Assembly: GCA_040954595.2 (NCBI GenBank)
Contig: CM082586.2
Coordinates: 991,630-1,055,629, forward strand
DNA length: 64,000 bases
Direction of reading: 5' to 3'
Source: Balanoglossus misakiensis
Lineage: Eukaryota; Animalia; Hemichordata
Shown: positions 8,899 through 42,200 of the stretch, one piece after another
Numbering within the stretch: position 1 is the stretch's first letter
Layout: each line of letters opens with the position of its first letter
Notes under the pieces: generated by a model
Told to the model about the DNA's origin: nothing
Database searches by the model: none
Seen by the model: the letters and a program-made list of their open reading frames with translations, nothing else
Position numbers and translations under genes: made by a program

Positions 8899-9224
8899 GG
8901 TGTGTCTGTTGTATCTTTGGATGTGGCTTTATCGTAAAACGATAATTAGGGGCTTGGATCACCTTCGGAGCAACAGATTATCGACAAATCTGGCACAGGG
9001 AATTCCACGATCGGTGTAAACGTGGCGATCAGCTGCAGGAAGGCGAGGAATCCCCCTTGGTCGTGCGCATGCCCGAGCCTCGCTCTGACGTAGCTGAGGG
9101 CTTCCCCCGAAATTAACATAACTGTGTGTCAGCCACGTTGTTTTTAGTTAGGTCAACAGCTGCCGAGCGAACACGCCTGAACTTGGGCGAATTTAACGAA
9201 ACTGGGAGAAAACTTAACGATGCA
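8899..9224. promoter_or_regulatory. Bidirectional promoter between hydrolase-like gene and TDP2
   Basis: Only 326 bp separate the divergent ATGs. The region is GC/CpG-rich, with an NRF1-like TGCGCATGC at 9064-9072 and a nearby CRE half-site TGACGT (~9086). Confidence 0.7.
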
Positions 9225-11881
9225 ATGGCTACAGCGGCAGTCAGCGAATGCATCAACCCCAAACAAAGAAGCTTGTGCGAGGAATTTGCCGCAGTAACCG
9301 GTACAGACACAAGTCTCGCTGAATACTATCTCCGCGAAAAGGCCTGGCAGCTCGAGGCAAGTGCACGTATATTCCGTGAATGGATGACACCGATCGTCTT
9401 TTTCTATCACGTTTCAGATACTTCAAAAACCACTGCCTTTATGTTTTATGGGAGTGCATTTAACTGTGCGGGTATCGCGCGGTTCAAGACCTTGATCGAG
9501 CGCTTGTTTACGACTGAATGATAAAAGGGGGAGGGGCAGCTACAGAAGATCCGTTGATAATTTTGCTGACTCATCCATGTATTCAAAGTGAATGGTTTGT
9601 GAAAAAATGTGTCATGTCGATACCATGGTTTGTAATGGATAATGATGGTTACATTTTTGTGCATATAGCGTTAAATTAAGAGCTAAAATTAATTTCATAT
9701 TTCGATCTCTCAAGGCTGCAATTAACTCCTACTTCGATGGAAGTGACCCATCAGAGGGTGGTAACCATGGAAACACTGGTGATGATGATGATTTGGACCG
9801 GGCTTCAATGTCACCTTCAGGGTCAGGTTCATCAAGGAGTAGCTCACCAGACATGGTTGTCACTTATGAGTAAGTAAAAGAAAACATGTCAGTCTGGGTA
9901 CCTATGTCAACAAACATATCAGCACAAACAAGAATAGTTCACCTTATTTGGGGAAATGGGTCATGACATCAGTAAGTTGTGCAGTAAGGGCCATTGTGGC
10001 TTTATACAGCCACATTGTTTTCTCATCAATCATATCTAAGACAGGTGAAATGTTATAAAAAAGAATCCAGACAACTTCAAATGCATGTTATCTGTTGTCA
10101 CCCATGGCTGCACATACGACAGTGATGCATGTCCGACTGGACAAGTGTCAAAAAGTGTCAATTAGAGACTTGATTGATACAGTCCATATGTTGCCTTGGA
10201 GTCTGGGTAGCGATCACAGAGGGACTTCCAGTTTTCATCTGTCAGGGAAAATAATGTGGGAATATGTTCTCTGCACACACCCACGAGTTGATCAAAGTGT
10301 CAGGTGTATAATAAGTTGCCTTCAGACGTTGTATTGTTACACTGGGATTGACAAGTACATGTACTTGTACGTGTTCATTTCCCCAAAACAGGTCAGGTGT
10401 AGCAGTGGAATGTGTATTGGTGGGGAACGCGTGTCCCAGCACAGAAGTTGAAACACCAGAGATGGATCCCACTGTGCTGAAGTTGATGACATGGAATATT
10501 GATGGTTTGGATGAGAAGAATATCACAGAGAGAACAAAAGCTGTGTGTTCTACAATCAAAAGGTAGTTTTGAAGTTTGTCATTTTTAGCATGAGCTTTTG
10601 GAAAGCTAGGGACTGATTATGTCTGACTGGTGTTTGGATACATACACTTGGGGTGTCATAGTGCCAAGATGGCCAACTGAGAACCAGTATGTCTGTCAGT
10701 TGGGTGTGATGTTTGTATTTCTTCATGTCCAGAGGTACAATCATCGCCCTTTAATATGGACAGTTTAACATCATTTTGATTTATGACCACATTCACCGAT
10801 GTACACAAAATTTGCATTAACAACCACTTGACCTTTTGTATTCCCCAGTCATTTGCCAGACATCATCTATCTTCAAGAAGTTATACCCGAGACCTTTGCC
10901 TACATTGAAACCATGTGCTCACCGACTTACATTGCCATTCCTGGAAATACACTGGGGTATTTTACTTCCGTCTTGCTCAAGAAAAGTAGAGTTACATTGT
11001 TAGACCATATTATTCAGACATTTCCTTCGACTCAGATGATGAGAAATCTGTTGATAGTTAAGGTAAGAAAATAGTAGTTGCAGGGACAAAGTCTCTCATT
11101 TTTGACATTATTATGCAGTGTTTTAGTTGTTTTTTTCGATAACTTAATTATGTTCAGCTGATTGAAGCACAGTTGCTATCATTAACCCTAGGTCATCGAT
11201 GTACTGCTGATACACCAACTTTCACTTGAGTTACAGGCTAGGTTTTCAAACGTCAATTTGACTCTTATGACATCCCACCTCGAGAGTACTAAAGAATACG
11301 CTACGGAGAGGAAAAGACAGTTGAGTAAAGTTCTCAAAGAAATGTCCGAGGCTAATCCAAGGAGCATGGTGATCTTTGGTGGTGACATGAATATCAGAGA
11401 CAAAGAGGTAGGTCAGATGTTGACCATTTGACCACTCAATGTTTTGTCTTGTTCGATTCCATTCCACTACTAGGAACAGCAAACAGTAGAATTAAAGGGG
11501 CAAATACACTGACCATGGCATCTTTCAGGGGTCAAACAAAAGATCAGGTACACTGTGCATCTCTTGCTTTTAATTTTTGTCCCTCCATTATAGATTACAG
11601 ATGTGGGTGGTCTGCCAGAGGGCATCAATGATGTGTGGCAGATGTGCGGAAGTCCACCAGATGCTAGGTTCACCTGGGACATCTCGACCAATGATAATTT
11701 AGACTGGAGGTTCAAGAACAAGCCCAAGTGTCGATTTGACAGGCTCCTACTTCGCCAAGGCTGCGAACCACCAAACCTCACACCTCATACTTTCAAGTTC
11801 ATTGGCACAGAGAGACTGGCTACATGCCAACGTTTTCCAAGCGACCACTGGGGGATCTTGTGCGAGTTCAAAGTGCAATAG
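9225..11881 (+). CDS. TDP2: Tyrosyl-DNA phosphodiesterase 2 (UBA-like N-terminus + EEP catalytic domain), ~376 aa, 6 exons
   Basis: Exons 9225-9356, 9715-9869, 10392-10562, 10849-11062, 11237-11407, 11594-11881 (1131 nt). Motifs: CEEFAAVTGTD..A..YL....WQLEAAINSYF (UBA-like), LMTWNIDGLD, PDIIYLQEV, MMRNLL, TSHLES, IFGGDMNIRD, FTWD...NDN, CRFDRLL, RFPSDHWG. Confidence 0.96.
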
Positions 11882-14280: not shown

Positions 14281-14357
14281 CACCTGATTATGCGGGCAGG
14301 TGCAGTGAAGGGAAGACGGCATTGAGATAAAAACAGGTAGCCACGGGACAGTCAGTT
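14281..14357 (+). promoter_or_regulatory. Core promoter of secreted peptide precursor A
   Basis: Inverted E-box pair CACCTG (14281) and CAGGTG (14297), TATA-like GATAAAA at 14326, and consensus initiator TCAGTT at 14352, ~80 nt before the ATG. Confidence 0.45.
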
Positions 14358-14434: not shown

Positions 14435-16783
14435 ATGCGATTACTTTTGAGTTGCTTAATAGTGGCAGTGACACTGACTAGTGTCTGTCCCTTCAGATGG
14501 ATGGCAAGTAAAAGAAAGGAAGATTTGTATCCATATGATAAGCTATCAGAAGCCTACAATGGGATCAGAGGTAGGAGTAAAGCATTTAGTCACATTTTCT
14601 GCCTGCATGAAACTCTGTTCCTTATCAACTGGACTGGAGAAAATAATTGATCGTCAGTACATTCCTTCTGTTCAGCTCAAAGACCTTTCATTGTAATTCC
14701 GCAACTGCGATCATTCCATCAGAGCAAATTAATATTAAAACAGGAGAAATGTTGTTTATGTGAACTGCGAAAATTACAGAATGTGCTCATATAGTCAGTC
14801 TTCAAATATTATTTGGCTAAAATGGCAGCATTTTGAAGTAGAGATTGGTAGTGTGAAATTGCTACCCTGTTCAGAAGAAAATGTAACAGAAAGTCTAATG
14901 ATAATTCAAATGTGCACCGAGAGATACTTCAGGGAAACGTAATGGAATTGGCATTTATCTGTGCAACATCTTTCTCGGGTAGTTAACAGGTTTGAACTAT
15001 AACGAGGTATTGTGCATACTGAGGGAATTCTATCAGATCGTTTATGACTCTCATATGGAAACTGTCCAGTAAATTTTGATATGTATCGTGTGTTTATAGA
15101 CCACAATAGCCATTGATCTGCAACCGTAAAATTAAAAGCATCTACGATTTGCATAAATGAAAGTTATGAGTTATGTTGTGATGCACACACATTGTTCAAA
15201 AGCCTGAATACTTGAAAAAAATATTGTATATGCATGGAGCCATTAGCCATTTCTTTTCATAAAGGAGATGTGATAGGACACAGTCCCTCCATGTACAAAC
15301 TTCTCAAAAAGTTCTTTTTGTTTGGTTTGGTTTTGGTTCTGGTTCTGGTTTGGTTTGGTTTGGTTCTGGTTTGGTTTGGTTTTGGTTTGGTTCTGGTTTG
15401 GTTTGGTATCACATATGCAGTTTGTCATTATTGTGGAGATGCTGGGCCTGAAAATTCAATGCTTGAAAACCCTAGAATATCCAATTAAATCTTCAGGCCC
15501 ACATTATTCGATTCTCCCCGTAGAGAACTTAAGTGGCAACTCGTGTCCTTGCAGGATACTAAACTAACATTGAAGTCTCACGAGGTTTCATCATGATCTG
15601 TTGTGGAGAGATATGATGGTGATAACATTTATTGCGTTCCCACTGCAGATCAGGAGAATTTCTCTGAAGATCGATCAGTCAGGGACCAGGATAAACGGAG
15701 ATACAATGACAACATCCGATCTCTCATACTACAGCTATTCAAAGGTCAGTTTTGCATTTGCAATGGAAAAGTGTAATGTTTGTTTGGGGTAGACTGCAGA
15801 CGGAAGCAAATTCCCAACGGAAAGTGAAGTGGATTATATTATGAAAATGCTACTTTCCGTTCGCGAAATAATTATCTCTATATGTGTATGTTATTGAACA
15901 TTTATAAAGAAACTTTCTAAGAATCGCGCCCTCTACATGGAACTGTTCTCCAACATGAAATAATGATTGTGAAATGGTCGGATATCATCCTGATATTTTC
16001 GATCATCAGTTTCTTCTTCTTCAAGCACAATTCTAGAGAAGTCTTAGAATACTTTCAAGAGACCTCAGTGAAGCCTGACTAGGAACAAGAATGTTATGAC
16101 GAACTGAATGGAACTTACACTTTATGTGATCACATACAGTGTATACCGAGTTATTCCATGTCTATTTTCGTGTGTTTATGTATTGTTTAGAGCTTGCTGC
16201 AGATAATGGCTTGGCGAAGACCGTTCCAGTGTCTATTTTAAGGTATGACTGTATACATAAAAGCAAATTCGCATAATTTAAGACATGAATGCGACCGCAC
16301 TATTAATGATTGATTCACGGGTTATTTGGTAACCAAGAGAGCTTGCTGAGCGGAAATAGAATCTGAAAGCTTGGTACATAATTACTATCAATCTGCATTA
16401 TTTATTTACACCTAAATAATGGACAAGATATATTCATCACGCATTTTTATCAGGGCAAAAAAAGAACCTTAAGGTACTTTACGCCTATAAAACCAAAATA
16501 GTCTTAAACATTTTATCATATTTTCCTCAAGACAACTTTATAGTATTCTATTACAAAGGGAATTAAATCCCGGTATATATAATTATAGGAACACCTTCTA
16601 AAATCTTCTTCAGAGGTTGAATTTTCTGAAACTGCTTGTGTGACTTTAGTTCCAAGGAAGGGGTATGTCAAATGTCTTTCAGACAATGATAACTCCATCA
16701 ACTTTTCTTTCAGAAAACGTAATGATGGTCTTATTCTTCTGGATGACGTCTTGCAAGATTTAGAAGCAGACATCGACCCCTGA
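14435..16783 (+). CDS. Small secreted prohormone/neuropeptide-like precursor A (~117 aa, 4 exons)
   Basis: Exons 14435-14570, 15649-15744, 16191-16242, 16714-16783 (phases 1,1,2; GT-AG). Translation: MRLLLSCLIVAVTLTSVCPFRWMASKRKEDLYPYDKLSEAYNGIRDQENFSEDRSVRDQDKRRYNDNIRSLILQLFKELAADNGLAKTVPVSILRKRNDGLILLDDVLQDLEADIDP*. It has a signal peptide, an acidic spacer and KRK/KRR/RKR convertase sites; AATAAA at 17104. Confidence 0.7.
15318..15406. repeat. (TTTGG/TTCTGG)n microsatellite in intron 1 of precursor A
   Basis: Directly visible ~90-bp run of TTTGG/GGTTCT units; it generates the spurious ORFs at 15234, 15243 and 15322. Confidence 0.95.
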
Positions 16784-19700
16784 TGTGTATACATATCGGT
16801 AACTTCCAGCAAACATGCGACATCAAAAGTATTGACCATTACAACCAGAGTTTCTGATTTAGTAAATATTCCTTTGTTGATAAAACTAGTTTTGTTTGAT
16901 GGCACTAGTTCTTCTGTATATGTAAAGTATATGGGCATCTCTGTAGATATGCCAGTGTATAAGCCTTAGGTGTGTCTAAGTTGGGTATTTATATTACGAC
17001 TCTTTTTAAATCATTCGATAAACACTTTTTGATGTGTGCAGTGCTGTTGGTGCAAGCATATACATAGCAACAAGTACTTTAAAAAACTTTGTTTTGAATC
17101 TTAAATAAATGTCAAGTAAATTGTTCTAATGCAAACAGATAATCGCATTTGTGTCATTTATACACACCCTCTACCTACATAGATAAAACAGAAGCTTTTT
17201 CGTTTGTACCATAAAGCGCCCTCTAATCAAATTGTCTGCCTCACAGTCACTTGGCCATAATGATATATATACATGTAACAAGCAATACCATACTTTTCCC
17301 CATCCTATCACACCTTTGCGCAGATAAGCTTGAATAATACTAAATATAACCTTCCTGATGTAAAGTGCAAATGTACACCGGATGACTTGTTTTGCTTGCT
17401 GATGTAACCATGAAAATTTACACAGAATCACATATGGGCATTATTAAAATTCATAGGAGAAGCACTAAGTTCAGAAGAAAAATTCAAATCGTATCTTGAC
17501 ATACAGAGCGATTAATGTCTACACTCTCTTCAAAGGTACATTCCTGGGGACAGTTCCATCAATCATTATCGACTATCTTCACTTTGATCAGGTTAACTTA
17601 CATGCACAGTATGGGCAGGGTGAAGTGGGGTTAATCTCAATCTTTTCATACATACTGATTGTGCAAACTGGCAATTGAATTCCCGCCAAGGGAATAGTGA
17701 AGAAGCGAAAACGATGTTCTTATCAGCGAAAACATTGTCGACAGGTTCTATAACCTTGGGTTATTAATAACGACCCTGATATTTACGACTTTTTGAAGTG
17801 ATGGCAAATTGATATACGGGTCAATCATTTCAAACATATGCTAGTTTCTTGTCTTTGTATAATGATGTTTGGTAAGAGACATAAATAGACTCACAAGATT
17901 TGCAAGTTTGCACAAGAATGTGTTATCTGAACACGAGTTCTTTTCAGTTCAGATCTCTCGTTGCCATAGATACATCGACTACCTAAAAGCTGCCATTGGT
18001 ACTTCTGCATATGCACCACACAATACTCGATGATTATGATAAATGTAATTTGTTGTATTACATTGTCTGGTGCATATTCCTTATGCAATACATGGTATGA
18101 TATGAGCCACAAAACTATCGAATTTCATACTTGACGAGCAATTTGGAATTTGTAGATTCGAGTATACTTCATGAGTCCGGTAGGTCCTGTAGTTGCTTAA
18201 GATATTCCGTCGATTGAATTTATGCTTGACTTATAATTTATTAGGCATAGATGTGCAATTTGCAGTCCATGACTACAGGAGTCCTTGGAGCAAGTTATGA
18301 CTCAAGAACCGGATGCTTTAAAGACCAAAGTGACGAAATCTGCCTGTTTTACGCATACACGTGTTGCTCGAGTCCTTGGGAATCTAGCCGACACAAATTG
18401 ATGCAATTACATGGGAAGCTTTGGGAATGAGGATGTGTTAATTATTCAAGAAGTCAATTATAAGTTTATGTCCGTATTCTAATTCGTGTAGGGTATATGG
18501 GCATTTCAAAAACTATTGTCATAAACCTTGTTGCTTGTGACAGAGAAAATGACTTTCCGCCATGATTTTCAATCCCTGGTTCTCGCATTAGCTCTTGTTG
18601 AGATTCAATGTCCATGTAGTGTAAACCTTTTGTTTTCCATTGAAATCTTTATCAAGTTAATCTGTTTGATTTTAGATAAAGCTGATAAAGAAGGTGGGCC
18701 TTTAATATTGAATGCTGCCCAACATTGGCTGTCGTATCCTAGTCAATTAGTTAATTGTTTGATTCCTGTACCAATAGAAATTGACGGGTTCTATTGAGAC
18801 ACAGTCATCATTATATTTGAAATCAAGAAGATGGTTACCAATGAATTGATTCCATTTATGATCATGTCACAGATGTTTACATACTACCACTTGCATTATT
18901 GGACATAGCTGAGGTACGTGTATGTCCACCTGACCACAAAGCGGGTAAGCTTGTTGCACATCATGTTTAGAGAAACATACATTATTCAACGACCGCACTA
19001 TTTTCATTTGCTTAATAAGTCAAATCTTCCATTACTCCCACGACAGTCATTAATTGCAATAGGACGATTTATGTCTTTTATTCGCAAAATTTTGCTGTGC
19101 TATAAAATACTGCACTCAGGTGTAATTTCGTCACATACCTGTCATAGAATTGAGAGAAGGGTACGAGAGCGATTGTAGATATTTGGAAAAGTTAAAGGTA
19201 AGGGATTTTCTTTTCAACTTTCTTTAACAACATCACAGGCAAATGGCACGATTCAGGTATGGAATGTATCATTCTGCATCACCCAGTTCCTCAACCACTT
19301 CCTGCCATAGAAACCGCTCTCTTTTAAACAATGCTGGGCGTTCCAGTATAATAACTTCACTTGTGCAAGTATAAAAAAGACGTGTAGAAAACATGGTGCA
19401 GTAAAATTGTCTCTGTTCATGAAATTGAAATCTGGTCGATCTTCTGAGACGAACAATCTACTTTCGATAAAGTCATACGTTTTTTTAAGCTACTTTAAAT
19501 TAATGGATAGTGTACACTTCAATAGAGAAAAATGTATTTTTGTTTAGAACAAATGTCAAGTATTGCGTCATGTGTGGCAATGCACAATGTGGTACATTCT
19601 AGGAAAAATAATACTTTATTTATTCTAATTAAGGTTACTGTAGATGTCATAGGTAGTCGGGTTTGTAAAAGTCAAAATTAGGAAATGGTGTGATTCTTAT

Positions 19701-19928
19701 CTGGTAAAAGCGCCTGCGGATAGGCGTAAGACTTTCTGTAAGAAGACACTACTCATCCATTTAGCTAATCATTTTCCGCGCAACTCCTGTAGTATCGCTG
19801 TTCTTCCATTGCTTGTCTACACCACATCATTCGCCTAGGCGTCTACAAAAGTGCCTTTCAGCTCTTCGTTCTGAAGAAAAGGGTCTGCATTTCAGTTTTT
19901 GGAAACACGAAATGTGTATGAAAGTGTT

Positions 19929-19964
19929 TATAAACTAGCAGAGAGCGATCAAGTATTTTTCAGT
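19929..19964 (+). promoter_or_regulatory. TATA box and initiator of secreted peptide precursor B
   Basis: TATAAA at 19929-19934, TCAGT initiator ~31 nt downstream (19960), and ATG at 20037 in a GCCATG context. Confidence 0.5.
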
Positions 19965-20036
19965 GTCACGTTTACTAACTTGTTCTGTTTATGGTTATAT
20001 TTAGTCAGATAAGAAGATCCTGTCCAAACCAGTGCC

Positions 20037-21915
20037 ATGTCATTTCCGTGGGACAAAAAACGAATAGGGGTGATGCTTTGTATGCTTGGTTTTCTTCTGA
20101 CCTTCACACATGCTATGATAGATACAGGAGAGAAAGATGATTATCAAGACGTGTTGAGTGAGTAGTTTCCATGAAACATTCTTATATCTCCATTAGCGTT
20201 CCGAACAATGAAATTTCTGGGTCTTACGACTGGAGTTGTTTATTAAACAAACCATGGACTGTGATGTAAATGTTAAAATGTATATTGTTTTTGTTGTTTC
20301 TTTACTTCACAGGCAACATATTTTTAAATGCATTTCGTAGAGTACAAAGATCCAGGGGACCGACAGGGAATGTGGGTGACATATTTGCAGGTAATTAAGA
20401 ATTTGAAACAGAAAATAATCTGACAAAATGCTCAATAGATTCACTTCTCAGTCATATTTGAAGGTCAATATTAAAGTAGCTGCCAACTCTTCATTATAGG
20501 TAGATCAGTGTCATCATTATAATTTTCTGAGTGACGTACATAAATGTGTTACTGACTCCACCCCAACCCCAACCGTGTTAAGTTAAAACGTTAAAATTAC
20601 ACCTATGGATACAAAATCAAGCTTACCCACTTCTGACATGCATTCTCATTACATTTGTCCTGTCGATTGACACCTCCAAGTTTATCTTACAAACACCTGG
20701 TTCGATTCATAGAATCAAATTCAAATAGTGTGTGTACAAATGATCTATCTTGATTTAATACTCCGCTAGAGATTTAAATGCAAGCCCATGTCTAAGCGAA
20801 GGGGAAGTGTGCATATTTATATGTGAACAGTGTCTCAGATGAGCAATGTCCTGGGATTAGTGTTAATTGAACAATTTACTACCTGTAGCATGATTTGCAG
20901 TCGGAACGTGTTATCGAGCTCAGTTCGAAAATTTTCTTTTTTGCGCTCTCTCGGGAAAGCACTACTAGTTACAGTGGAAATAGATTGAAACTAAAATATT
21001 TATGCCTGTGTCGCAAACTAGCACGGTGCGGCTGCAATCAAGATATACAAACATACATTATGCATGACGCTCCACTGCCTTTGTAATACAACATATAATT
21101 TAACAATTCAGTTTCTCTCATTCTTCTCTGTAATGGTGTGCATTAAATTTAGCATGGCATTATTGTGTGTAAACGTTAAAAAATGTACACACCATTACAG
21201 CCTTTGATGACAAGAAGTTTGCCCTGCACTTTACCATAGAATTTAAGTATGTACTGAGCAAGGCATTGTTGAATAGACTATTTTCCGAAATTCACGAAAC
21301 ATTTTCATGTGACACCGGACAAACGACACAACACATGGCGAATGTGTTAATCAACACTGATCTATGTGTTCCTCCTTTACATTCACAGCTCTACGGAGGA
21401 AGTATGGATATCCACCAAACCAGCCATCAGTACCACTATCAATTCTCAGGTAAACTATTCGAGTCAACATATCCCCGACGAAAAACACTTTGATCCAACA
21501 TATCTTAATCACTCAATGAATTTATCAACATGCCATTTTCTGTCGATGAAGTTCAAAAACTGATCATAAAACTAAAAGCAATAAAAGTGGCATAGATGAG
21601 TTCATTAAAAACTGCTCTTGATTCTTAAAATTATTGTTCATATTTTAATGTTTTGTTGAAGTTCAAAAACTGATTAAAAAACTAAAGGTAATAAAAGTGG
21701 CATAGATGATAACATAAATGAATTTATTAAAAACTGTTCTGATGACATTCTTAAAACTATTGTTGATCTCTTTAATGTTGTTCTGGACAGGTATTGTGTC
21801 AGGTGACTGGTGTATTGGCATTTTAATTGGCACGTTTCATTTCCGTGGATACATGAATGTTGTAACCAAAACATTCACCGCTCTGTTTTCGCTTCATTAC
21901 AGGTACGTGAGGTAG
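20037..21915 (+). CDS. Small secreted prohormone/neuropeptide-like precursor B (~87-90 aa), paralog of precursor A
   Basis: Exons 20037-20157, 20313-20390, 21389-21449 (phases 1,1,2; strong splice sites). The last exon is probably 21903-21915 (R-YVR*); alternatives are 22069-22078 (R-FR*) or unspliced read-through to TAA at 21451. Translation: MSFPWDKKRIGVMLCMLGFLLTFTHAMIDTGEKDDYQDVLSNIFLNAFRRVQRSRGPTGNVGDIFAALRRKYGYPPNQPSVPLSILR(YVR)*. It has a signal peptide, an RVQR furin-type site and a VPLSILR ending that matches VPVSILR of gene A. Confidence 0.7.
21515..21830 (+). mobile_element. Degenerate non-LTR retrotransposon (LINE) ORF2 fragment with internal tandem duplication
   Basis: Frameshifted translation resembles VDEVQKLIKKLK.NKSGID.I.NEFIKNCSDDILK.LVDLFN...TGIVSGDWCIGILI, the segment just upstream of the LINE RT domain. 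About 110 bp (gaagttcaaaaactgat...ctaaa...aataaaagtggcatagatga...ttaaaaactg) occurs twice, at ~21548 and ~21658. Confidence 0.7.
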
Positions 21916-22562
21916 CTTCAAGGAGGCGAACATCACCGTGTAGTAGAACATCCCCGCTGTTTTGATTAAACATTGCGTGCCACATCGTTCTCCAGTTGTG
22001 TATTTGAACCCAGCATCTGCATAATAAAACAGTCTATCTGACAACAAAAAAAATGATTGATCTTTCAGGTTTCGTTAATTACACAAGGCTTATCGATATT
22101 CTCGACATGGAATACTAATGCAACAGTAGCCATTGAAGGTCAACGAAAATTTTAAGTGTTATCATCTTTATATACCGGATCTTGATTACAAAACATTCTC
22201 TCGAAATAGCTGTGCCAAAAATGTGTTTAATCATTATTACCATTTCACTCTCATTTATGGGAAATCTATATTTAAATACACATGTATCTATTATCCACTT
22301 CAGTAAAAATTATGTGATGTAGTAGAACTGTTTGCATGAATCCAATGTTGTACATTTGTTCTTTCACGGGCACGCAAGAGTTACAAATTAATTTCAATAT
22401 TTTTATGGATACAAATCAAAACATGAGAAAATTAAACGTGGCAATCAAAATAAAGATATATGCATTAAATGCACGAGTCTTCTATTCTCTAAACATCTAC
22501 ATTTTCCATTAAACATTACTTCTGCCAATACCAGTTTGTGTCGATAGAGACGATTTACCAAG

Positions 22563-22606: not shown

Positions 22607-24313
22607 CACAAGGTCGATAAGACCGTAAAGGTGACACAAACTGCAAAAATAGTTCCAATGACTGACAAGGCCAAAGTAAATAGGAGAGATCATTAGCCTG
22701 CCTGTGATCTTTATCTTTAGAGTCCCAAGGAGACATCACGAAATCTAGCTAGTGTCACACGTTTCTCAGTCCTCGTAAACTCGACTTGTTAAGTGATAAT
22801 GCACCAGCTGCATGTAAATAACAGTAGCAAGAAGCCACATTTATTTCAATTATTCTGGATCCAAAAGAAAGAAATGTGTTGATATTTCAGGAGTAGTTCA
22901 TATGGTGAAACCCTTTGACCAATTGGCATTAAAGGGGACACTGCTAATAGTATACGGTTAAGGTATTGCAATCCCAGACCCTTTCACTAGGACCTATGAT
23001 CCCATCAACGCAAGGTTTTGCCAACTCAGCCGTAGCTGGCGCCATAGCAGTGAAAGTGCGGTATGTGTGAGCGACATTAAGCCAAAGTGCAAACAATCAC
23101 CTGTAGTGAGTTCTTTGTCAGCCATCTTACAGGATAACAGTGGAACGGAAGCAAGCAGTGATTGTACCACCCTTCACAGTTCACACCGCTCTCAGAAACG
23201 AGGTCATCTCACTCGCTTGATCATATTCTGTGGTTGAAATTTCATCGTGCCATTCTCGGCTTTATTGTGAGCGTAATATTTTTGATCACGTCAAGAAGAA
23301 ATACTGCTCGACCTCTTCCCGGAGGCCTACAGGTTTACATCGAGAAATACTCTTGCGTCGCCATTAATCCTCGCAACACCTACAACACGCCGGTGCCTGA
23401 TACAAAGTTGTCTTATTATACCTGTAGTTGAATTACTGGTATCATTGGTGGAGTCGAGAGATTTTGAGAAAGGACCCAAAAAATCAAGATTCTCTGGTGA
23501 GTGTGGTATGCGACTAAGAGACAAACGTTAATTGCGCAATTAAACGTGTATTGTCAAGTTTTATTGTTGCACAAAAGCCTGGTAGTAATCCGATTAACTG
23601 TTAGGAAACTTGATCTAGGATTAAGCAAATCAAAAATTGTTCACAAATTTTTTCTAAAGGTATACATACAAAAATAAGGTGGATAATAGATATGGGGAAG
23701 TATGTGAAAATTTAAAATAGGAGGGCATATTTCCCTACATTTGGCGCTTCATTGGAATTAGGGCCGGCAAGAGAGATTAATTCTGGAAGGTCACGAGGGA
23801 ATGGTTTCTCCAGATTGTATTTTGACTGCCGGTTTATTACTTAAACCGCATGAAAGTGTTTGAGCAGTTAAGCTATATTTAAATATTGGTGGAAATTTCA
23901 GCCATTTCACTACGATGTTCATTTCAGAAAAATAATCAAACGAATCGTAAACTGGTCACGAATCCCATGGGAAAGGTGACCCCGAAGTGACCTGCTCTGA
24001 GGTAAACAATGATCTCACTCTTGGGTGTATCCCCAAGGAGCACAAAAGAGCATGCGTCATTCTTTATGTGTTGACAACTTCGCGATTGTGTTTGCTCATT
24101 TGCATCAGAAAGGGATCGATGACCACGGCTACTCCCAGTCTCAAAGTTGACACAGCGCCGCCAAATTGAATACAAAAAGTAAACGAACACGCCTTGGTGT
24201 GTTCATTCTACTGTTCTGCCAAGCAAGATGTGTAAACCTTCTATAGTATGGCAACCTAATAAATTTACGCTCCTGCGTCGTGTGATAGTGACCAGTCCTC
24301 GATCAGGTCAGAT

Positions 24314-24341: not shown

Positions 24342-25006
24342 GTCAGGTCATGGCGGTAACCTCCACTGTCAGATCAGTGTCACTGGCAAGCTTTATTTTC
24401 CAGTTATGTATCATATTGTATGTTGTGTAATCACATGCGCTGCAGGCACGACAGTACACTGACTTTTGTGCTGGGAAAACGCAAAGCCACAACTTTGAGT
24501 GCTGAGACACCAAAACATCACTGTAGTGTTGATGACGCTACGCTAAGCGATGAACAAAAAAATCCCATACACATGCAGATTCAATCCAATTGTAGCCATG
24601 AGTGCCTTTTGTCGATTCATTCACAACACACAGAGCACAGCCTTCAAGAAATGGATTTGCGTATAACTAGCCCCATCTCGTGTTCAGTGTCACTCTAACC
24701 TTCGTATTTCAAGTCACGGGTGAACAGGGTTATATTGAAGAAATTACATGTACATCACATTAGTTTTGCAAATATTCCAGTGATGGAAATAAATAACTTT
24801 AAAAGTTTTAAACTATTGAACTAATATTACTGATAATTACAATTTTATTAAGTCATTTCACAATCTTTATAATATTTTTGTTGATTCTTATTTTTTAAAG
24901 AAAGCCCATCCGGAGCTGTAGAATCCCTCAACTGGTTGTTTGATGTACACCTGTTGGCATTTCTGGCTGTTTAATTTGAAGTTCATTGGTATACGAGACG
25001 TCATCG

Positions 25007-25663
25007 ATGGATGAACTATTGTCCACTGTGGCACCCCCGTGTGTTGGTGATGAATGCATTACAGCATCCTCCAAGTCAAAAGTCTCGCCAGAACTGGTGC
25101 TAGGACTATCGTTGGTGGCGTTTGTGGGTGCCGTCATATTCACAGTCGGGATGTTGATCTTCATCAAAAGGCAGTGTCGAGAGGAAGACAAGCGGACGGA
25201 AGAAGTCATTCGCGAGAAGCAAATGTTCGAAGAGCAAAATGGTGGGATGACAGGGTACAAGTCGGTTAAGAAGCAAAATTTTGCCTTCATCAGCAAGACA
25301 AATTCAGAGGTCATTCTCGGGAGGCGGGCTGCTGCCGGTGACCAACCGAGGCAGTATGTTTCTAGAAATGTCAACATCGCCGCAGAGGGCGATGCAGGAG
25401 ACGACGAACATGTCACTGTTTACAATGATCATGACAATCCGTTATTCACGGCTGATGCCATCATGACAGCTAGCGACTTTGGAATTGGTCAAGCCAATGG
25501 AGCATGCAACGTCGATGATGAAACTATCCAAACTGATCAAAATGATAAAGAGTCAGATGACATTGTCAATGACATTATGAGTCTCGTTCATTCTCTCGAG
25601 AGTGAATCTGCCAGGAGCGTGGCTGGAGATTCAGACGAGCCTCCCCAGGTGACAGTATTGTGA
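25007..25663 (+). CDS. Uncharacterised single-pass (type III-like) membrane protein, 218 aa, single coding exon
   Basis: Longest ORF in the window. First ATG at 25007 after an in-frame TGA; splice acceptor at ~24900 upstream. TM helix LVLGLSLVAFVGAVIFTVGMLIFI followed by KR; acidic tail with DNPLF; C-terminus QVTVL; AATAAA at 26126. Confidence 0.85.
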   Translation: MDELLSTVAPPCVGDECITASSKSKVSPELVLGLSLVAFVGAVIFTVGMLIFIKRQCREEDKRTEEVIREKQMFEEQNGGMTGYKSVKKQNFAFISKTNSEVILGRRAAAGDQPRQYVSRNVNIAAEGDAGDDEHVTVYNDHDNPLFTADAIMTASDFGIGQANGACNVDDETIQTDQNDKESDDIVNDIMSLVHSLESESARSVAGDSDEPPQVTVL

Positions 25664-33232: not shown

Positions 33233-36200
33233 CTATGTAAAGTGCAGGTAGGACAACCAGTAGATCAGATTGAATATAGTAAAACAGACTGGAAAGAGCA
33301 ACCTAGATAATTTGTCAACTTTGTAAGCCATGTGACGTCGTGATGATGTTATACACATGCTTTTGCTGACGATGCCCGATTCGACGCCGTTACTCGGATA
33401 TGTGCCTTCGTTGTTGCAGTTGTCGTTGGGGACATCCTGTTTGTAGACAAACGGTTTGCTCTGCATCTCCTGTAAGAAGGGAAAACATAAACCATATCAG
33501 CTGCTGTTAATTTCCCTTTCAGTGGGCCAACTGGGGAATCCTTCTGTTCAGGATCGCCTAAAAACTAACAGACGAGAATGGCTAAGTAAGTGGGCGGCTC
33601 TTTGAATGAATGTTAGTGCGATATTTACGGTAAGAGTAATGGATATTTCGCGTCAAACATCGATGCTTCAAAACCAGATTCACCCAAAAGGTGGGCTTAT
33701 CGTTGCAACAGAACGATTTATTTTTTTCTTCGGTACAATGGATTTGGCAGGATAGCGAAGAAACTTGTTTTCTGTGGTACGCCAGCGGCGAAGATCATCT
33801 GCTTAACGACTTGCTACATCGCTAAGCTTCCGTTGTCACAGAGAGACAAGGGACCCACCGTGGATGTGCCGTACGGCTATATTTTGAGAAGAAAAAAAAC
33901 ATGTTTTGTTTTCCACCACACTTCAGCGTTGAAGTACTGGCCAGATATGGCAAACATGTACAGATTGTTTCCAGCTGGCTGGACAAAGTACTGTGGGATA
34001 TTCTTTGTGCTATTAATATCTATGAATGAACAAGGCGGTGGTATGTGTCGTTTACTTACCATAGCTTGCTCGAAATCCCCACGCCTTTTACTTTTTTGCC
34101 AACAGTCGAAGAGCTTTATGTGTTCAGGCATCTCATTCGCAGCCAGGTAATTGACGATGGCAAATTCTATCATGGCGGCAAATACAAAGAACATACAGGT
34201 CGTCATCCAGATATCGATAGCCTGAAATGCACAGAAAATTGCAGTAACAATCAAAACTAGGATATTTTATAATAAATGTATTGACACATACATGTATCCA
34301 TGTCCAAATTAAATGATTTGTGAGTCTACTTGTACCTTAGGGTTTATTTATTTATTTGTTTGGTTGGGTGGTTGGTTATTGATGTATGTCAATATATCAT
34401 ATGTCCCAGTGTCTGAAACTTTTTGTGTTCATTTGCATTCTTGGTTAAGCACAGCTGTGCAACCTTTTATAGCTGTTGAGTTTCGATACACAGTGTTATT
34501 CTGAGTCTGAAATTGAAAGCTTGAAGCAGCCATAGTGGACAACCAATCTGCGCAAAGACCTGCGTATACCTCCTGTCTTTGATATTAAATTAAATTAGTT
34601 TCCTTCGGGAAACCAGCCATTGAACAAAGATATTAAAAAGATGAAAAGGCGAAGAGAATAAAACAGCTATGATGTTATCGATCATATTAAACAATTTAAG
34701 CTGCCATCGCGATATTATTTTTTCATTTAATCACAAGCTTGTTTAGCGATTTAGAATTGACACATCGCTTAAATTATAGTACAGGAGTAAACAATAATTA
34801 ATTTGTGATTTAAGATCACTAAAGGACTCATTTATTTCATGTTTGCAGATGTGACAATGTTTAATCGTGCATTCAAGTATATCGCACAAGATTAGCATGT
34901 TATGCATGCACGTGACGTCTTTGACAGCGTTTGATACACCACCCACAGGAAGAAATGTGGTGATTGGAAAACTTTACGGATTAAAAGACACACTCTGCAT
35001 TTTTTACTTTTATCAGTTTCGGATGAATCAAAAGTTTGAGGATAACAAAAATACTGGAAGGGGTATACACCTACTTGAGCATCGACAAGTAAAGCGGAAA
35101 GAAACTCGAGCTGCTTTCCAATTTAATTTTAATGAGAACGCAGATGTATGATGTATGTGTGTTTGAAGGGGATACTTTTGCCATTCTAATCTGGATTAGA
35201 ACGTCGCCATTGATATGATCGCCGCGAGAGTTTCGTGAAACTCTGCTGAAACAACTGAACGTGCAGAGTATTCCCCTGCTGGCAGACGATAGCTTCGAAT
35301 ACATCAAACTTTGTCATAACACGACCGCAAAAGCGGGTACCCAACTACACAACCCTCTTGTCATAAAATGGACCTTCACATTCATAATGTGATAAAAAGT
35401 AACGATATATTGCTTGCCGTTATGTACAGAATAATACAAAGTAACCACCACATTGTTCCTAATGCACATTGTAGCAGTTATACACTTAGCACCGCCGTTG
35501 ACATGGTATCAACTGTGTTCTATGGTGTATCCTATGGGACTCATATACTCAGCCACAGAAGGGACGACACTCACCCTTTAAGGAATACAAACTGACTAGT
35601 TTGGTTCAGACAGAGAGACAGATAGCCACAGCATTTACCTTCAAAACATTGGATTGGTGGGAAGTGGAAACCATCAGTTATTACTATATGCATATATTAG
35701 TCATGTTTGTTGAGTGATTGACTACATCGTACTTGTGAGTTGCTAGGCTAAATAAATTATTAGTTTTGTACGTGAATGCATGATTTATGTTTTCAATTTG
35801 TAAGACAACAGCAAAGCGTACATCTTAATGAATCATTATTTACAAAGCCTAATAACTTTTTCAAGCCGTCATTATCATTATTACTTCAGCATAATGAAGG
35901 CAATTAACAATGATAACCGAAATTTGACAGTACATGTACATGGATCTTAATAACAGTTTAATTGATATTTGATTAAGTCTCCATCTTTGAATTTTCGAAT
36001 ACTAACAATTAAACGCGTGTAGTGAACGTTAACCTTCAGCAATCGTCATTCAAACAGTCTCGACTCATAACAGCAATATCACATAAGGCAATTGTGATGA
36101 GTATTAACATTTTATGTTTATTTATGCTCACAGAGAGAATAGTTATACCATTTCACCTCTCTCTTCAGTATCTCAGCAACAACTCATACTACCACACCCA

Positions 36201-39200
36201 TATTTCTGCTATTCTGACGATGTTGAAGTGACTCGATGTTTCAATAAGACACACAGGCGCATAGAAAGTGGTTTGATGTGACCTACAGTTATGGTGCGAG
36301 CAATTCTTCGTGCATTAAAAGCACGATTTTGATGTCGCTTGGCGGCAGACAAATAATCGCCTAATCAATCGGATTAATTGATGAAAATGGTTCGTTTTTT
36401 AAAACACGCGTAAAAAAAAATAAGGAGCTTGTCATAAGAGCTTTTTCAGTTAACAATTTGTACTCCATTATTCATTTATTACTAATTGTTCATATTGTAA
36501 TAAGTAAGAGCTGCGAGTGCCATCAGAAAAGTAATTTCAAGTTTCTTTTTTCCATTTAAACGTCAGGCCTTGTGCATGACGGCCTTCCTTTGAAGTATGG
36601 CGGTATTTGTTCAGATAAATAATCCATATTTTGTAATTTTCTGTCTGCAAGATATTAACAGCATTTCTACATTTGCCATGCGCCCATAGCACTGTGTGAT
36701 GTTGTGTGTTAAAAATAAATGGTAGAGTTATCCAAAGAAATTATGAACCTCTAAACAAGAATATACTCACCGTAGCATATGATACTTCGAGTGAACCTCT
36801 TGCAATAGATAACTGCGTTGCAGTTGTCAATACTGTGGTGATCCCGAGGGCCACACGACCTGGTGTACAGTCCACTTGCAGCCAGAAGGAGACCCAGGAT
36901 AATATCACAAGAAAGGTGCTTGGAATATAGTTGATCAAAATGTAGTATCCCATCTCACGCTCAAGGTAGAATACAATTTCCAAGTACGATTTATGATTTG
37001 CTGTAGAAATCAATTTGGACATGGGCAGTTAGAAGTTTATACTATTTTTTCACACATAATTGTGGCTTGATGGATGGAGGGACATTGCAAGGCTGGAGGA
37101 ATGGGCAGACAGCAGGCAGACAGACAATATGATTGTTCAGGAATATTCCACTATCGCAGACTTCATCATTGCCATCGAACAAGTAATCAGTCAAAGAACT
37201 AGCAAAGAGATAAAAATCAATCAATCAATCAATCAACCGGTCAATTAATCAATCAGTCGAGCTTGTGATAGAAAACCTGAAACACTTATGAGACATGCCA
37301 TTTTAAAATGTCCCAAAGTTACTTAATTCACATCACAAGGATTTAGAAGTTATTTATACCAATAAATGACATGAAAAGATGAAATGAAGCACCAGCTCCA
37401 GTATGTGTAATTAACTAAACTCTGTCATGTGTAACAGATTTTGCTAGTCAAGCTAAAATCAATAAAAATTGATTGCATGACTGAACAAGATCAATGATGT
37501 AGTCCCCACGTCCAGCTAGAACGCTAAGTGATCATGGATTAATATTGATATTGAACATGCTAAACAAAGGCCACATGGGACGGAAAATCAAATTCCGGCA
37601 TGAATTCTGCAATTCGCAGCAGAAATAGTTACGTCATGGCAATAGAACTGTAGTTCTCATTGTGCACATGTGGTACTAGTTTGAATGTTTTTTTTATAAC
37701 ACAAACATTAGTCTAGCGGAGATATACCCTTAAGGAGTGTGAAAGAAGGTTCTGGATTATGAGTGACCTCCTGAAATTTCTATAACCTTTTGCATTAAGT
37801 CAGGTACGATGGATACACCAACTGTATTATCTAATGCCTTCACAGGCGTTAATTAAATATCGATGGTGCCCCTATACACAGCAGACTGCCCGCGGTCACA
37901 GCATTGCCATAATTCGTATTGTATCGGCTTACTTTACCCGATAACCTCGAGGATAGTGTGGCAATATTCGGGACGTCGACACCACATATCATGGCATAGT
38001 CAGTTAGTTAGTGCCCGCTGGCCCCGGTGGGGAAATACGGCAGCGCAAATGTGTGCACTTCACACCGATTTCAATAGCAATGCCTCGAGCCAGTGGAACA
38101 GTGTTTATTTTGTACCGGTATATGCAACCAAAGGTCTGGATAGGTGTAATTTGAAGGTTGTTGGTGTGTTGATCAAAGCATTTACACCTAAGGCAGTAAT
38201 ATATCTAGACCCAGACTTTTATCCATTATCTGGAGGAATTATGGGAATTCCAAAGTGAGCAATTAAGTGCTGGGGTGGTGTATGTGTCTGCTTGTCTATC
38301 TGTGTCTCTCATAACAGTTATGTTTCATCCATATTCCAACTCTTGCACATGTCGAATAAAAACTGGTATACACTATGTGAATTTAACACTTTATCTGGTC
38401 AGTCCTTTGGAAGTCTTGACACTATTTTGATTTGTGTATAAAATCTATAACTCAAGACATGTGGTAATCAAAGGACAAATCCACATATACTGCTTTTACA
38501 GCAGCAGTCCTGTTCTGGCAGGTATTAATTGGCAAACCTTGAATGTTTGAAATACGACCTACTTTTAGGAATAAGCAATGTCGGTTCTGCGAAAAAGCAC
38601 TTTGGTGTGCACCGCTGGTTGTCATAGGAACTGTTTTATAGTACAAACATAGGATAGTAGAATCTTCGCTCTGTGTACGATTCCAATACATCAATGCCAA
38701 ATATCGGCACCTATACCGGTATTTGCTCTTTATGGATGTTTCAGTCTCAACCCTTTTTTCTTGGATACATTTATTGGGATCTTCAGCACGTTTAGTCCAT
38801 ATATTCGATTCAACTTGTTATTATACTGTTTGAATTTCTACCTTTTTTATTACCTGCTATTCATCAGTTTGACATGACCCTCAACAACCTTAATTATTTG
38901 CTTTCCGGAAAGTATCCATCATACTTTCTTCACATCAAATAAACCAATTCCGTGTAACGAACACCAGTTTGGTATGATTTAGGTATCAGAGTTGCATTCG
39001 AGTTCATCATTAAATGAAGCTTGATCAAGGTGTCTCCCAAATGCATGCCAAATGTAAATTAATCATGATTACAGCCACACATGTGGGTAATCAATATCCA
39101 AGGTGTACACTTGCCCGCATCGTGTTATTAACTCTCGCAATATTAAAATTCCACTGTATTGTTAAAAACATAAATCACTTTTTGTTGAGTGTGACAACGT

Positions 39201-42200
39201 AGAAATACTTTACATGCAAATGTTGTTAGTGTGTATAATTAATGCTTCGGGTGTATCCATAAATTGCATTCGCCAAGGCCTAATCTCATTTGCGTCACTT
39301 CTATAAAAAGAACATGAACTAATTAACTTGACCAAGGACGTGTCAGGTTCTACTTCATATATTTATTAATATGTGAAAAAACTGAAAAGTGCATTGAAAC
39401 TATACTTTTCAAAGGGCAATCCTTGCTTGGTTCATATTATGGTTAAATATTATTGTTAAGATAATATGAGATACACATGCATTGTTTTATTTATTTATTT
39501 ATTGATTGATTGATTGATTGATATAAGTGCATATTCCCTGTCCTGATACATATCATTCAACATAATAACAACCATAGAATTTAACTTACAATTAATGTTG
39601 GATTTGATAGCTTGTTTATATTCAAAGCGACGGAGGGTAAACTGAGGCATTTCATTCCCAGAAAATACAGCTACAGGTGTTTCTTTCCTCCACTGCAGCA
39701 TCAGATTCTTGGAATCATAAGCATCTGCAAAAGTAGAACAAAGTATGAGTATATGTGCTATCAAAGCGCATGATATTTTGAGAGATAATATGGTGGCTCG
39801 AAAAGTACATGCACGCGGTCACGTACGTATCACCTAAAGATCCCTTTCTGTTCACACTTAAACTCAGAAGCACAACACTTTTAAAATACCAGGTTAATGC
39901 CACCAGCCATGTTGTATTGTAACATGCAATGATTTCTGACAGTTGTGGATGTCTAAGTGGGTCAATCTACTGTACCTATTAAAACCTATTATAAGCATAC
40001 AATACATTTTGCCACAGAGTCATATGCCGTCGGCATTTCAGTTTCATGCTAATTGTGTACACTCATAATGTAATTACTTGAAGTGGCGTATAGTCCCAGG
40101 AGAATGTATACGTAGACCAGTATAGTAGCATACATTACGTATATAGCTCACAATTGATAAAAAATTAAAGCTGACATTTTAAGAGCCAATACTTATATCT
40201 ACATAAATTTAATGGGTGATCGCATAAAATCCAATTTTGTGTAATCACTTTACGTGGCAATCATGCATGTCTACCGGTATATTCCAATGTTAATATTGTG
40301 TTAAAGATAAGTATATTGTACTAGTTAAAAATAGTATTACAATATAGTCTGTGCTGTGTAATGTGGTGATTTTATATTAAAGGTAATAATTGCACACACA
40401 ATAAGTTTGTCAAATAGGCAGACAGGCAGACAGTCAGCCATACAGGCATGTTCAGTGGCCTTAATTTAAGAGCCTTGCAATAAATGAATAGCAACCTTGG
40501 GAGTATGTCAAAGCATAATAAAACAACTTTGAACCTCACAAGTCAAGAAATCTGCCCATCTTCAAACCTTGCAGATTTTTGCTTGTTAATAGAATATGTG
40601 CCGTAAAATTCAAAGCTATTAATACACCACATATATATAAGGCCTGTCTGCATCAAGCTATTACGTGATCAAACGTTAGAAAACGTGGGCATAAATTGTA
40701 GTGTCCACTGTGCTGGCGGTGACAACAGTCGACTTTTTCATGTCAGACGGCGAGCGATATTCAGTTATATGCATTACTAGGCAACCTCACGTCTGGTTCA
40801 TACCCTCAGCCGTCTTATCAGAATAATCACTCATTCATCAGCAGGAAGAAACATAAAAGTTTCAATGTGTGAAAGACTTAGCTCGGACTTAAGGTTATGG
40901 ATGTATTTGAGGAGATTTGTCAGGGGATTTTGTGTTTATCTGCAGAATTTAATATTTGAAACGTAACACCATGATTGTCGCTGTTGTAATCTCGCTCTTG
41001 TAATCTCCGTAAGAAGACTTTTTTATGTCATCTGGGTTTATGTTGACATGCTTTTAGCAATGTCCATCTGGCATTGGTTTCTTATGTTCTTGTTCTTTGT
41101 CTTATCTAGTTATTGTAACTGTCCTTACCCCTCAGAATATATTTGTGTAGTGTAGTCTGAAAATGCAAACCAAAGTCAGATTTGGCTTTCTTTGGTCTCA
41201 ACGGTCAGTGTCCATTGAGATTTTAGATCTGTAGTCCGTTCGTTTGTATTCCTAGCTGTCCATCTGAAGTCATTACTCAAGAAAGTCAGTAGCCATTTCT
41301 CAAAATCTGCAAGTGTATGCACTATGATGTACATATGCAACATCTCGGGAGGCTTGGTTAATTGACTGGCGACAGGTTGCTAGCCAAATAGAAGTCCTGC
41401 TTTGTATGAAACTAGAATGCACACAGAGTTAATTTGCCATGTCCTGTGTCACACGAGAATGTCCTACTATAAACTGCATCCATGAGAGTTCTCGCTGAGT
41501 CTCGTGAAGGGACTCACTTAACTTGGAAATGGATAATTCTTGTTTTGATTACAGTAATGGTTTGCATGTTTGAATTCGAACATGCTTTCCCAATGGGAAG
41601 TTTTGCATTCATGGATCATGTTTGCATAACACGCTTGACCTCTGCCAAATGATGGCATGTCGTTCATGAGCAGAAGTTAAAACATCACTGATCTATTGAC
41701 CTTTTATTCCGAGAGAAAAGTGAATTGAAAGCTGTTTTGATTGATTCTCGGAAATTCTCAAAGTTTTTGTTTTGTTATTGACACAAAAGTTAACGTACAG
41801 CAGTCGCTCTGGCGCCAAAGTCACTTTTTGTCGCCATGCAGTCTCCGTAACTTTGCTGCATGGACCATATCTACGCTAATTAACTACATTCCCCATTGAC
41901 ATAAACAAACTAATGTACAGTGTTTGTGGGTCCCATATCCATCTTCTTTAACTTTTTTAATATGCCGCCGGATTCGGCTTGGTAAGTCTTGTTGTAAAAC
42001 CATCCTTTCGTGAATGACTGATTTAAAATGAAAAAAAGCTCCAGAAGCCACATCAGACTGATATTTTTAGATCTTTAAAGATCATCCATAAATTACGTGA
42101 TTCTGTAAACACTGCATACACAAGGAACCACTTCTATTATGCATTCAGGCAAGACTTTCTGTTACTTCCTTTGCGACTCAATCCTCTTACACAGGGATGG

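What the first reader, a model, noticed from the sequence alone, without database searches (positions are those of the whole stretch)
14435..21915. Tandem pair of paralogous secreted precursors defining a candidate new neuropeptide/hormone family ending in VP[VL]SIL
Seen in sequence: two small genes ~3 kb apart on the same strand. Each has a TATA-like box plus initiator, a signal peptide, an acidic spacer and basic cleavage sites, and both use intron phases 1,1,2. Predicted mature peptides are A (after KRR) YNDNIRSLILQLFK|ELAADNGLAKTVPVSIL-RKR and B (after RVQR) SRGPTGNVGDIFA|ALRRKYGYPPNQPSVPLSIL-R. They align as [LI]F-x-x-L-x4-G...VP[VL]SILR. The phase-1 intron falls at the same position after F-x, and the phase-2 intron splits the Arg codon after SIL in both genes, while signal and spacer regions are unalignable. 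Established knowledge: conservation confined to a convertase-flanked segment is the hallmark of bioactive peptide paralogs. Inference: these are non-amidated ~31-33 aa peptides with a free-acid ...SIL C-terminus that I cannot assign to a known family. The hydrophobic -IL-OH end before a basic site loosely recalls neurotensin (PYIL), and the phase-2 Arg intron recalls NPY/NPF genes; neither is demonstrated.
Basis: partly seen in the sequence, partly recalled or inferred. Interest (0 to 1): 0.88.

Follow-up and report, generated by a model that had tools for sequence, protein, structure and literature searches.

The report
Acorn-worm twin peptide-hormone precursor genes
Two neighbouring small genes, likely from an acorn worm, are predicted to encode secreted precursor proteins that share only a short tail motif, and they likely yield signalling peptides of a family that matches none of the named families I could check.

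Summary
The gene models hold. Both genes have four coding exons, GT-AG introns in phases 1,1,2, a hydrophobic N-terminus and basic sites. The neighbouring TDP2 exon is closest to acorn worms. Paralogy rests on the VP[VL]SIL-R tail: 1 of 7095 same-phase candidate exon-end pairs scored as high, and 3 of 5 identical residues use different codons. The rest of the precursors barely align. Two corrections concern gene B. Its proposed 33-mer holds an internal RRK site, so a 15-mer is likelier. Its free SIL end needs intron read-through or an unusual single-Arg cut. I found no convincing homolog (one doubtful singleton), and expression could not be tested. Neurotensin, Ciona NTLP, NPY/NPF, PrRP, QRFP and iPTH each fail a defining feature. 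CiNTLP1, which ends VPSIL, is the closest look-alike. Verdict: a likely real paralogous prohormone-type pair and a candidate unnamed family, unconfirmed by orthologs, RNA or peptidomics.

The parts
14326..14357 (+). Gene A candidate core promoter (TATA-like GATAAAAA and Inr-like TCAGTT)
   Evidence: read from the sequence; start site not tested
14435..14570 (+). Gene A exon 1: predicted signal peptide (about aa 1-18), KRK at aa 26-28, start of acidic spacer; phase-1 donor
   Evidence: (hydropathy maximum 2.81 at aa 3-13); SignalP not run
15649..15744 (+). Gene A exon 2: spacer, KRR (15693-15701), first 14 residues of the predicted peptide (amphipathic helix); phase-1 donor
16191..16242 (+). 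Gene A exon 3: rest of predicted 31-aa peptide ending VPVSIL; phase-2 donor splits the Arg codon
16714..16783 (+). Gene A exon 4: RKR site, acidic 20-aa C-terminal peptide, stop; AATAAA at 17104
19101..19197 (+). Gene B candidate TATA box and non-coding first exon
   Evidence: donor top-ranked; matching acceptor at 20005 or 20009 weak; inferred
20037..20157 (+). Gene B first coding exon: predicted signal peptide (about aa 1-26) and short acidic stretch; phase-1 donor
   Evidence: (hydropathy maximum 2.58)
20313..20390 (+). Gene B second coding exon: RR-V-Q-R site (20336-20350) and 13 following residues; phase-1 donor
21389..21449 (+). Gene B third coding exon: internal RRK (21394-21402), predicted 15-mer (21403-21447) ending VPLSIL; phase-2 donor that reads Arg-stop if unspliced
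21903..21915 (+). Gene B last coding exon: completes Arg, then Y-V-R-stop; AATAAA at 22023
   Evidence: one of the 2 strongest + strand acceptors in the window

Best explanation
Two tandem genes with matching intron phases and a shared VP[VL]SIL-R tail are likely old duplicates that encode secreted prohormone-type precursors, predicted to be cut at basic sites into non-amidated signalling peptides whose conserved hydrophobic tail would bind a receptor, likely a class A GPCR. Shown: exon structure, open frames, hydrophobic N-termini, basic sites, tail conserved at protein level. Inferred: entry into the regulated secretory pathway; convertase cuts at KRR and RKR plus carboxypeptidase trimming give A a 31-mer with a free Leu carboxylate. 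In B, cuts at RVQR and RRK give a 15-mer that ends in SIL (read-through transcript) or in SILRYV (spliced transcript). The variable N-terminal amphipathic helix would be an address or spacer part, the tail the message. Source cells (neurons or gut and skin endocrine cells) and receptor are unknown.
For: Frame-keeping GT-AG models with strong splice sites. Tail similarity beyond chance with a shared phase-2 intron. Synonymous differences in 3 of 5 identical tail residues and no long DNA repeat between the genes point to selection on the peptide rather than recent copying. In A the motif ends exactly at RKR and begins within a KRR-released segment. Neither modelled precursor has Cys after the signal region or a Gly amidation donor at the tail, and no alternative acceptor gives RF/RY-Gly. 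S. kowalevskii expresses PC2 and other processing enzymes (PMC10508912, passages). Free-acid peptides ending in P-x-I-L exist in other deuterostomes.
Against: No ortholog found. Exon 2 of A gave 1 candidate and none scored; a stack of five exon pieces gave 180 candidates and none scored, although simulation showed good power for B relatives at 60% identity or more and poor power for A. The collection holds Glandiceps and Saccoglossus proteins, so conservation outside the tail is low or the genes are unannotated there. Similarity is only 7-8 residues; whole-precursor alignment p=0.043 in another register. B's C-terminus is not a clean convertase site.
Confidence: 0.6

Rival explanations
1. The genes encode secreted host-defence, mucus or pheromone-like peptides rather than neuroendocrine ligands; the amphipathic helices do the work and the tail is a sorting or trimming signal.
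For: Both have an amphipathic helix (11-residue hydrophobic moments 1.81 and 1.64). B after its acidic stretch is Arg/Lys-rich. A signal-acidic spacer-peptide layout is also typical of antimicrobial precursors (recalled).
Against: A's predicted peptide has net charge 0 and its flanks are acidic. The conserved part is the non-helical tail, not the helix, whereas antimicrobial families usually conserve the signal peptide (recalled).
Confidence: 0.15
2. They are divergent members of an already named peptide family, or precursors already listed for Saccoglossus under another name.
For: Short peptides drift quickly. A phase-1 intron inside the peptide recalls PrRP and a phase-2 intron in an Arg codon recalls NPY/NPF; B even reads R-Y there. 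Ligands for hemichordate QRFP- and GnIH-type receptors were reported as not yet found in 2014. The Mirabeau and Joly paper was not held.
Against: No amidation Gly after RY or RF at any of 197 (A) and 191 (B) downstream AG sites. No Pfam or PDB match for the exons tested. PLSILR, PVSILR and PLSILK occur 0 times in a 3.87-million-character supplement of precursors and receptors from many animals, and no matching precursor showed in the echinoderm or xenacoelomorph supplements.
Confidence: 0.12
3. They belong to a deuterostome-wide lineage of free-acid P-(x)-x-I-L peptides that also gave Ciona NTLPs and vertebrate neurotensin.
For: CiNTLP1 ends VPSIL and neurotensin ends PYIL; both genes end P-[VL]-S-I-L next to a basic residue.
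Against: Pro sits one position further from the end and Tyr is absent. Neurotensin genes have phases 1,0,0 with both peptides on one exon. NTSR was not found even in urochordates or cephalochordates. PYIL tails have evolved by convergence at least twice.
Confidence: 0.07
4. One or both models are spurious, or the two genes are unrelated and share the tail by chance.
For: No RNA support obtainable; similarity is 7-8 residues; thresholds in my null test were set so that both real exons pass.
Against: Strong splice sites, open frames, promoter and polyA signals; 1 of 7095 pairs.
Confidence: 0.06

Closest known systems
Ciona neurotensin-like peptides (CiNTLP1-6; ci-nt-A and ci-nt-B)
   Same: Non-amidated hydrophobic C-terminus; CiNTLP1 ends VPSIL, sharing S-I-L and a Val/Pro pair just upstream (PMC8936170 supplement table); two paralogous genes.
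   Different: 8-12-residue peptides, several per precursor, Pro at position -4. Here there is one motif per precursor, Pro at -5, and 15-31 residues.
Vertebrate neurotensin / neuromedin N
   Same: Pro...Ile-Leu free-acid tail before a basic site; four coding exons.
   Different: PYIL with critical Tyr, two peptides on one exon, phases 1,0,0, system reported as confined to chordates. Here there is no Tyr in the tail, the peptide is split by introns, and phases are 1,1,2.
NPY/NPF and PrRP precursors
   Same: Single-peptide precursors; phase-2 intron in an Arg codon (NPY/NPF); phase-1 intron within the peptide (PrRP).
   Different: Both need a C-terminal RF/RY-amide. A has R-K-R and B has R-Y-V-R with no Gly.
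iPTH / PXXXamide
   Same: Signal peptide, basic site, one mature peptide with a Pro near its end, C-terminal extension.
   Different: Strictly conserved Gly-basic-basic amidation signal and N-terminal SD are absent here.

Membership tests
Prohormone-type precursor (general kind) | N-terminal signal peptide | tested here: met
   single hydrophobic maximum at the N-terminus in both; SignalP itself not run
Prohormone-type precursor (general kind) | Conserved segment flanked by convertase sites | tested here: inconclusive
   met for A (KRR and RKR); B has RRK upstream but only a single Arg downstream
Prohormone-type precursor (general kind) | Expression in neurons or endocrine cells; peptide detected; receptor activated | not testable with these tools
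   no RNA holder listed
Neurotensin/neuromedin N | C-terminal PYIL | tested here: not met
   P-[VL]-S-I-L against PYIL
Neurotensin/neuromedin N | Intron phases 1,0,0 with the peptides on one exon | tested here: not met
   1,1,2 here
Neurotensin/neuromedin N | Activates an NTSR ortholog | not testable with these tools
   no genome held; NTSR reported absent from invertebrate chordates
Ciona NTLP | C-terminal P-[SG]-[IV]-[ILV], Pro at -4 | tested here: not met
   Pro at -5; last three residues equal those of CiNTLP1
Ciona NTLP | Several short related peptides per precursor | tested here: not met
   one motif per gene against 4 and 2 peptides per gene
NPY/NPF | Phase-2 intron in the Arg codon of a terminal RF/RY | tested here: inconclusive
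   phase-2 Arg intron present in both; followed by Tyr only in B
NPY/NPF | C-terminal RF/RY-amide (Gly donor) | tested here: not met
   no downstream acceptor gives R-[FY]-G directly
PrRP | Phase-1 intron within the peptide | tested here: met
   a common feature of little weight
PrRP | C-terminal RF/RY-amide | tested here: not met
QRFP/26RFa | 25 residues with Leu4, Ala8, Lys18, Gly20 and RFamide | tested here: not met
   features; 0 of 4 positions match in the register suggested by a recalled resemblance of B's exon 2; no amide; no PDB hit
iPTH/PXXXamide | Gly-basic-basic amidation signal; N-terminal SD | tested here: not met

The most novel reading that the evidence does not exclude
The pair is the acorn-worm branch of an ancient deuterostome peptide lineage with a free Ile-Leu tail, ancestral to tunicate NTLPs and vertebrate neurotensin. 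It would move neurotensin-like signalling back before chordates and point to the ligand of an orphan receptor. The milder novel reading, an unnamed hemichordate peptide family with its own receptor, has about 0.45 probability and would deserve about 0.6.
Probability: 0.07. Interest if true: 0.85.

Novelty: new variant of a known kind. Interest (0 to 1): 0.47.

Why it matters
Hemichordate neuropeptides have mostly been found by homology to named families. My three literature searches aimed at hemichordate neuropeptides listed no dedicated hemichordate peptidome, and a 2014 review named hemichordate peptide receptors still without ligands. A non-amidated family held by selection on a short tail would be missed by homology screens. 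It gives two synthesizable candidates for receptor matching in the sister group of echinoderms. A link to the NTLP or neurotensin tail would bear on where that supposedly chordate-only system came from.

Tried and rejected
Own genome: none held. RNA runs: no RNA holder listed, which is no evidence either way. Protein searches: A exon 2 and a five-piece exon stack gave nothing at E<=10; both see only relatives that share several exact 5-mers, and the spliced precursors themselves were never used as queries. HMMER over 1.84 billion representatives with A exon 2 gave 1 hit, P0025 (E 2.6e-4), a one-member cluster on a 2.1-kb contig that carries the match twice in a tandem repeat and shows no VP-x-SIL tail. 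I treat it as probably chance but could not see its DNA. Metagenome contigs: 473 and 19 pattern matches, none confirmed. PDB: 0 hits for 3 exons. Pfam: 0 families for 5 exon or exon-containing frames. ESM Atlas did not answer for A exon 2. Earlier scan findings: nothing in 6 look-ups. Full-text search for VPLSIL, VPVSIL, PLSILR or PVSILR gave 2 unrelated papers, seen as listing only. Supplement searches: crinoid (27), xenacoelomorph (50), sea cucumber (57), ophiuroid (58), spiralian and pan-animal set; hits seen were unrelated proteins. I saw only 2 of 32 PLSIL places, but PLSILR and PLSILK were 0. Sequences printed only as figures, and bioRxiv supplements, were not visible. No further family member in six frames of the window and no GPCR family hit among 124 frames scanned, a subset of the 298 stop-to-stop frames of 58 aa or more. 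Recalled leads to DH44/CRH, galanin, secretoneurin and natriuretic peptides were dropped on inspection without a tool test. Structure and complex prediction were not run: only single short exons could be submitted.
Full report
Context. The window is animal DNA of about 37% GC. A TDP2 gene lies just upstream of the finding. Its last exon (11594-11878) is 78% identical to Glandiceps talaboti and 69% to Saccoglossus kowalevskii, against 56% or less for the other 22 of 24 hits, so the source is likely an enteropneust hemichordate. Downstream lie a predicted single-pass membrane protein exon (24980-25663) and a Cys-loop channel gene on the minus strand. No whole genome was held and no RNA run was listed.

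Observation. Gene A (14435-14570, 15649-15744, 16191-16242, 16714-16783) gives 117 aa and gene B (20037-20157, 20313-20390, 21389-21449, 21903-21915) gives 90 aa. All introns are GT-AG with phases 1,1,2. Scored with a simple matrix of my own, 5 of 6 donors and 5 of 6 acceptors are in about the top 1% of window sites. The two best + strand acceptors in 64 kb both belong to B. Each protein has one strong hydrophobic stretch at the N-terminus. A has a TATA-like box 28 nt before an Inr-like element. B's TATA at 19101 implies a non-coding first exon, which has a top-ranked donor and a weak acceptor. PolyA signals follow both stops.

Are they paralogs? The evidence is narrow but good. Exon 3 against exon 3 gives p=1e-4 by shuffling, while exons 1, 2 and 4 give 0.10, 0.76 and 1.0. 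Among 207 candidate exon ends on both strands, forming 7095 same-phase pairs, only the A/B pair scores 19 or more (observed 25). These pairs are not independent and the thresholds were set to let both real exons in. Five of the last seven residues are identical and three of these five use different codons; no long DNA repeat links the genes. That pattern fits an old duplication with selection on the tail.

Predicted products. In A, KRR and RKR flank a 31-residue neutral peptide with an amphipathic first half and the VPVSIL tail, followed by an acidic 20-mer. After SIL, the spliced B reads R-Y-V-R-stop. With no basic residue at P4, P6 or P8 the single Arg is a poor site, so the product may end SILRYV. 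If the last intron is read through, the frame is Arg-stop and trimming gives SIL. The strong acceptor at 21903 favours splicing: one that strong follows a random position within 1 kb only 3% (+ strand) to 10% (- strand) of the time. AATAAA at 21580 and 21690 leave read-through open. No acceptor downstream of either gene yields RF-Gly or RY-Gly (197 and 191 AG sites), so amidation is not predicted.

Mechanism. Most likely (0.6) these are prohormone-type precursors whose conserved hydrophobic tail is the receptor-binding message, probably at a class A GPCR. Gene structure and tail conservation are shown; secretion, processing, cell type and receptor are inferred. Rivals are host-defence or mucus peptides (0.15), a divergent named family (0.12), a neurotensin/NTLP lineage (0.07), and chance or spurious models (0.06).

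Search for relatives. None was convincing. Word-based searches with A exon 2 (1 candidate) and with a stack of five exon pieces (180 candidates) scored nothing at E<=10. Simulation says the second search would usually catch a B relative at 60-70% identity but rarely an A relative. Full HMMER with A exon 2 gave one singleton, P0025, at E 2.6e-4 from two tandem copies of the match and with no tail motif; I could not resolve it. Metagenome scans, PDB and Pfam were blank. An 8-residue motif alone is below what these tools can retrieve, and hemichordate genomes could not be searched as DNA, so absence is weak evidence.

Comparison with known families. Neurotensin needs PYIL, has phases 1,0,0 with both peptides on one exon, and is described as chordate-confined; NTSR was not found in urochordates or cephalochordates (bioRxiv 10.64898/2026.01.24.701534 and 10.64898/2026.02.02.703354, passages). 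Ciona NTLPs end P-[SG]-[IV]-[ILV] and CiNTLP1 ends VPSIL (PMC8936170, passages and supplement table). This is the nearest look-alike, but Pro is displaced by one residue and NTLPs are short and multi-copy. NPY/NPF share the phase-2 Arg intron and PrRP the phase-1 intron, but both need RF/RY-amide (PMC7314547, passages). QRFP features (PMC4062910, passages) and iPTH features (PMC7224569, passages) are not met. So it works like a single-peptide prohormone with a neurotensin-like free-acid tail, but it is not a member of any family tested.

Not in print, as far as searched. The motif search returned two unrelated papers (listing only). Supplement searches of PMC9793003, PMC6188537, PMC6586643, PMC5627052 and PMC8557429 showed no matching precursor, nor did the main text of PMC4772807. 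PMC10508912, PMC13554239 and PMC12441681 were seen as passages; the one held supplement of PMC12441681 listed only image files. Mirabeau and Joly 2013 was not held, figure-only sequences were invisible, and bioRxiv supplements were closed, so a prior listing for Saccoglossus cannot be excluded.

Verdict. This is a likely real pair of paralogous peptide precursors and a fair candidate for an unnamed hemichordate family. It rests on two genes, one genome and an 8-residue motif, with no transcript, ortholog or peptide evidence. Interest 0.47.

Noticed in passing
window 9117-11881 (+): TDP2 gene (UBA-like and phosphodiesterase exons) directly upstream; a useful synteny anchor.
   Followed up: partly
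window 24980-25663 (+), possible earlier exon near 23340-23498: 227-aa open frame with one hydrophobic membrane-like segment and an acidic tail; no Pfam family passes its cut-off.
   Followed up: no
window 33236-44345 (-): Cys-loop ligand-gated ion channel gene; five exons hit Neur_chan_LBD or Neur_chan_memb.
   Followed up: no
window 14489-14509 (+): In gene A a 7-residue segment with an aromatic-Arg-Trp core lies between the predicted signal cleavage and KRK; it could be a second small product.
   Followed up: no
window 20315-20341 and 20378-21402 (+): Gene B carries two similar Ile-Phe...Arg-Arg helical stretches, and the first aligns with the start of A's peptide (score 33, p=0.043); possibly an old internal duplication.
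   Followed up: partly
window 21547-21772: Duplicated AT-rich block (spacing 110-126 nt) in B's last intron, each copy with AATAAA; could serve a read-through transcript.
   Followed up: partly
window 15316-15407: Degenerate (GGTTT)n-like microsatellite in A's first intron.
   Followed up: no
window about 5214, 7791 and 8030 (-): Three very strong minus-strand acceptors upstream of TDP2 hint at an unidentified gene head-to-head with it.
   Followed up: no
protein P0025 (not in window): Unnamed singleton with a tandem repeat that matches A's spacer, KRR site and peptide start at 56-59% identity; origin unresolved.
   Followed up: partly
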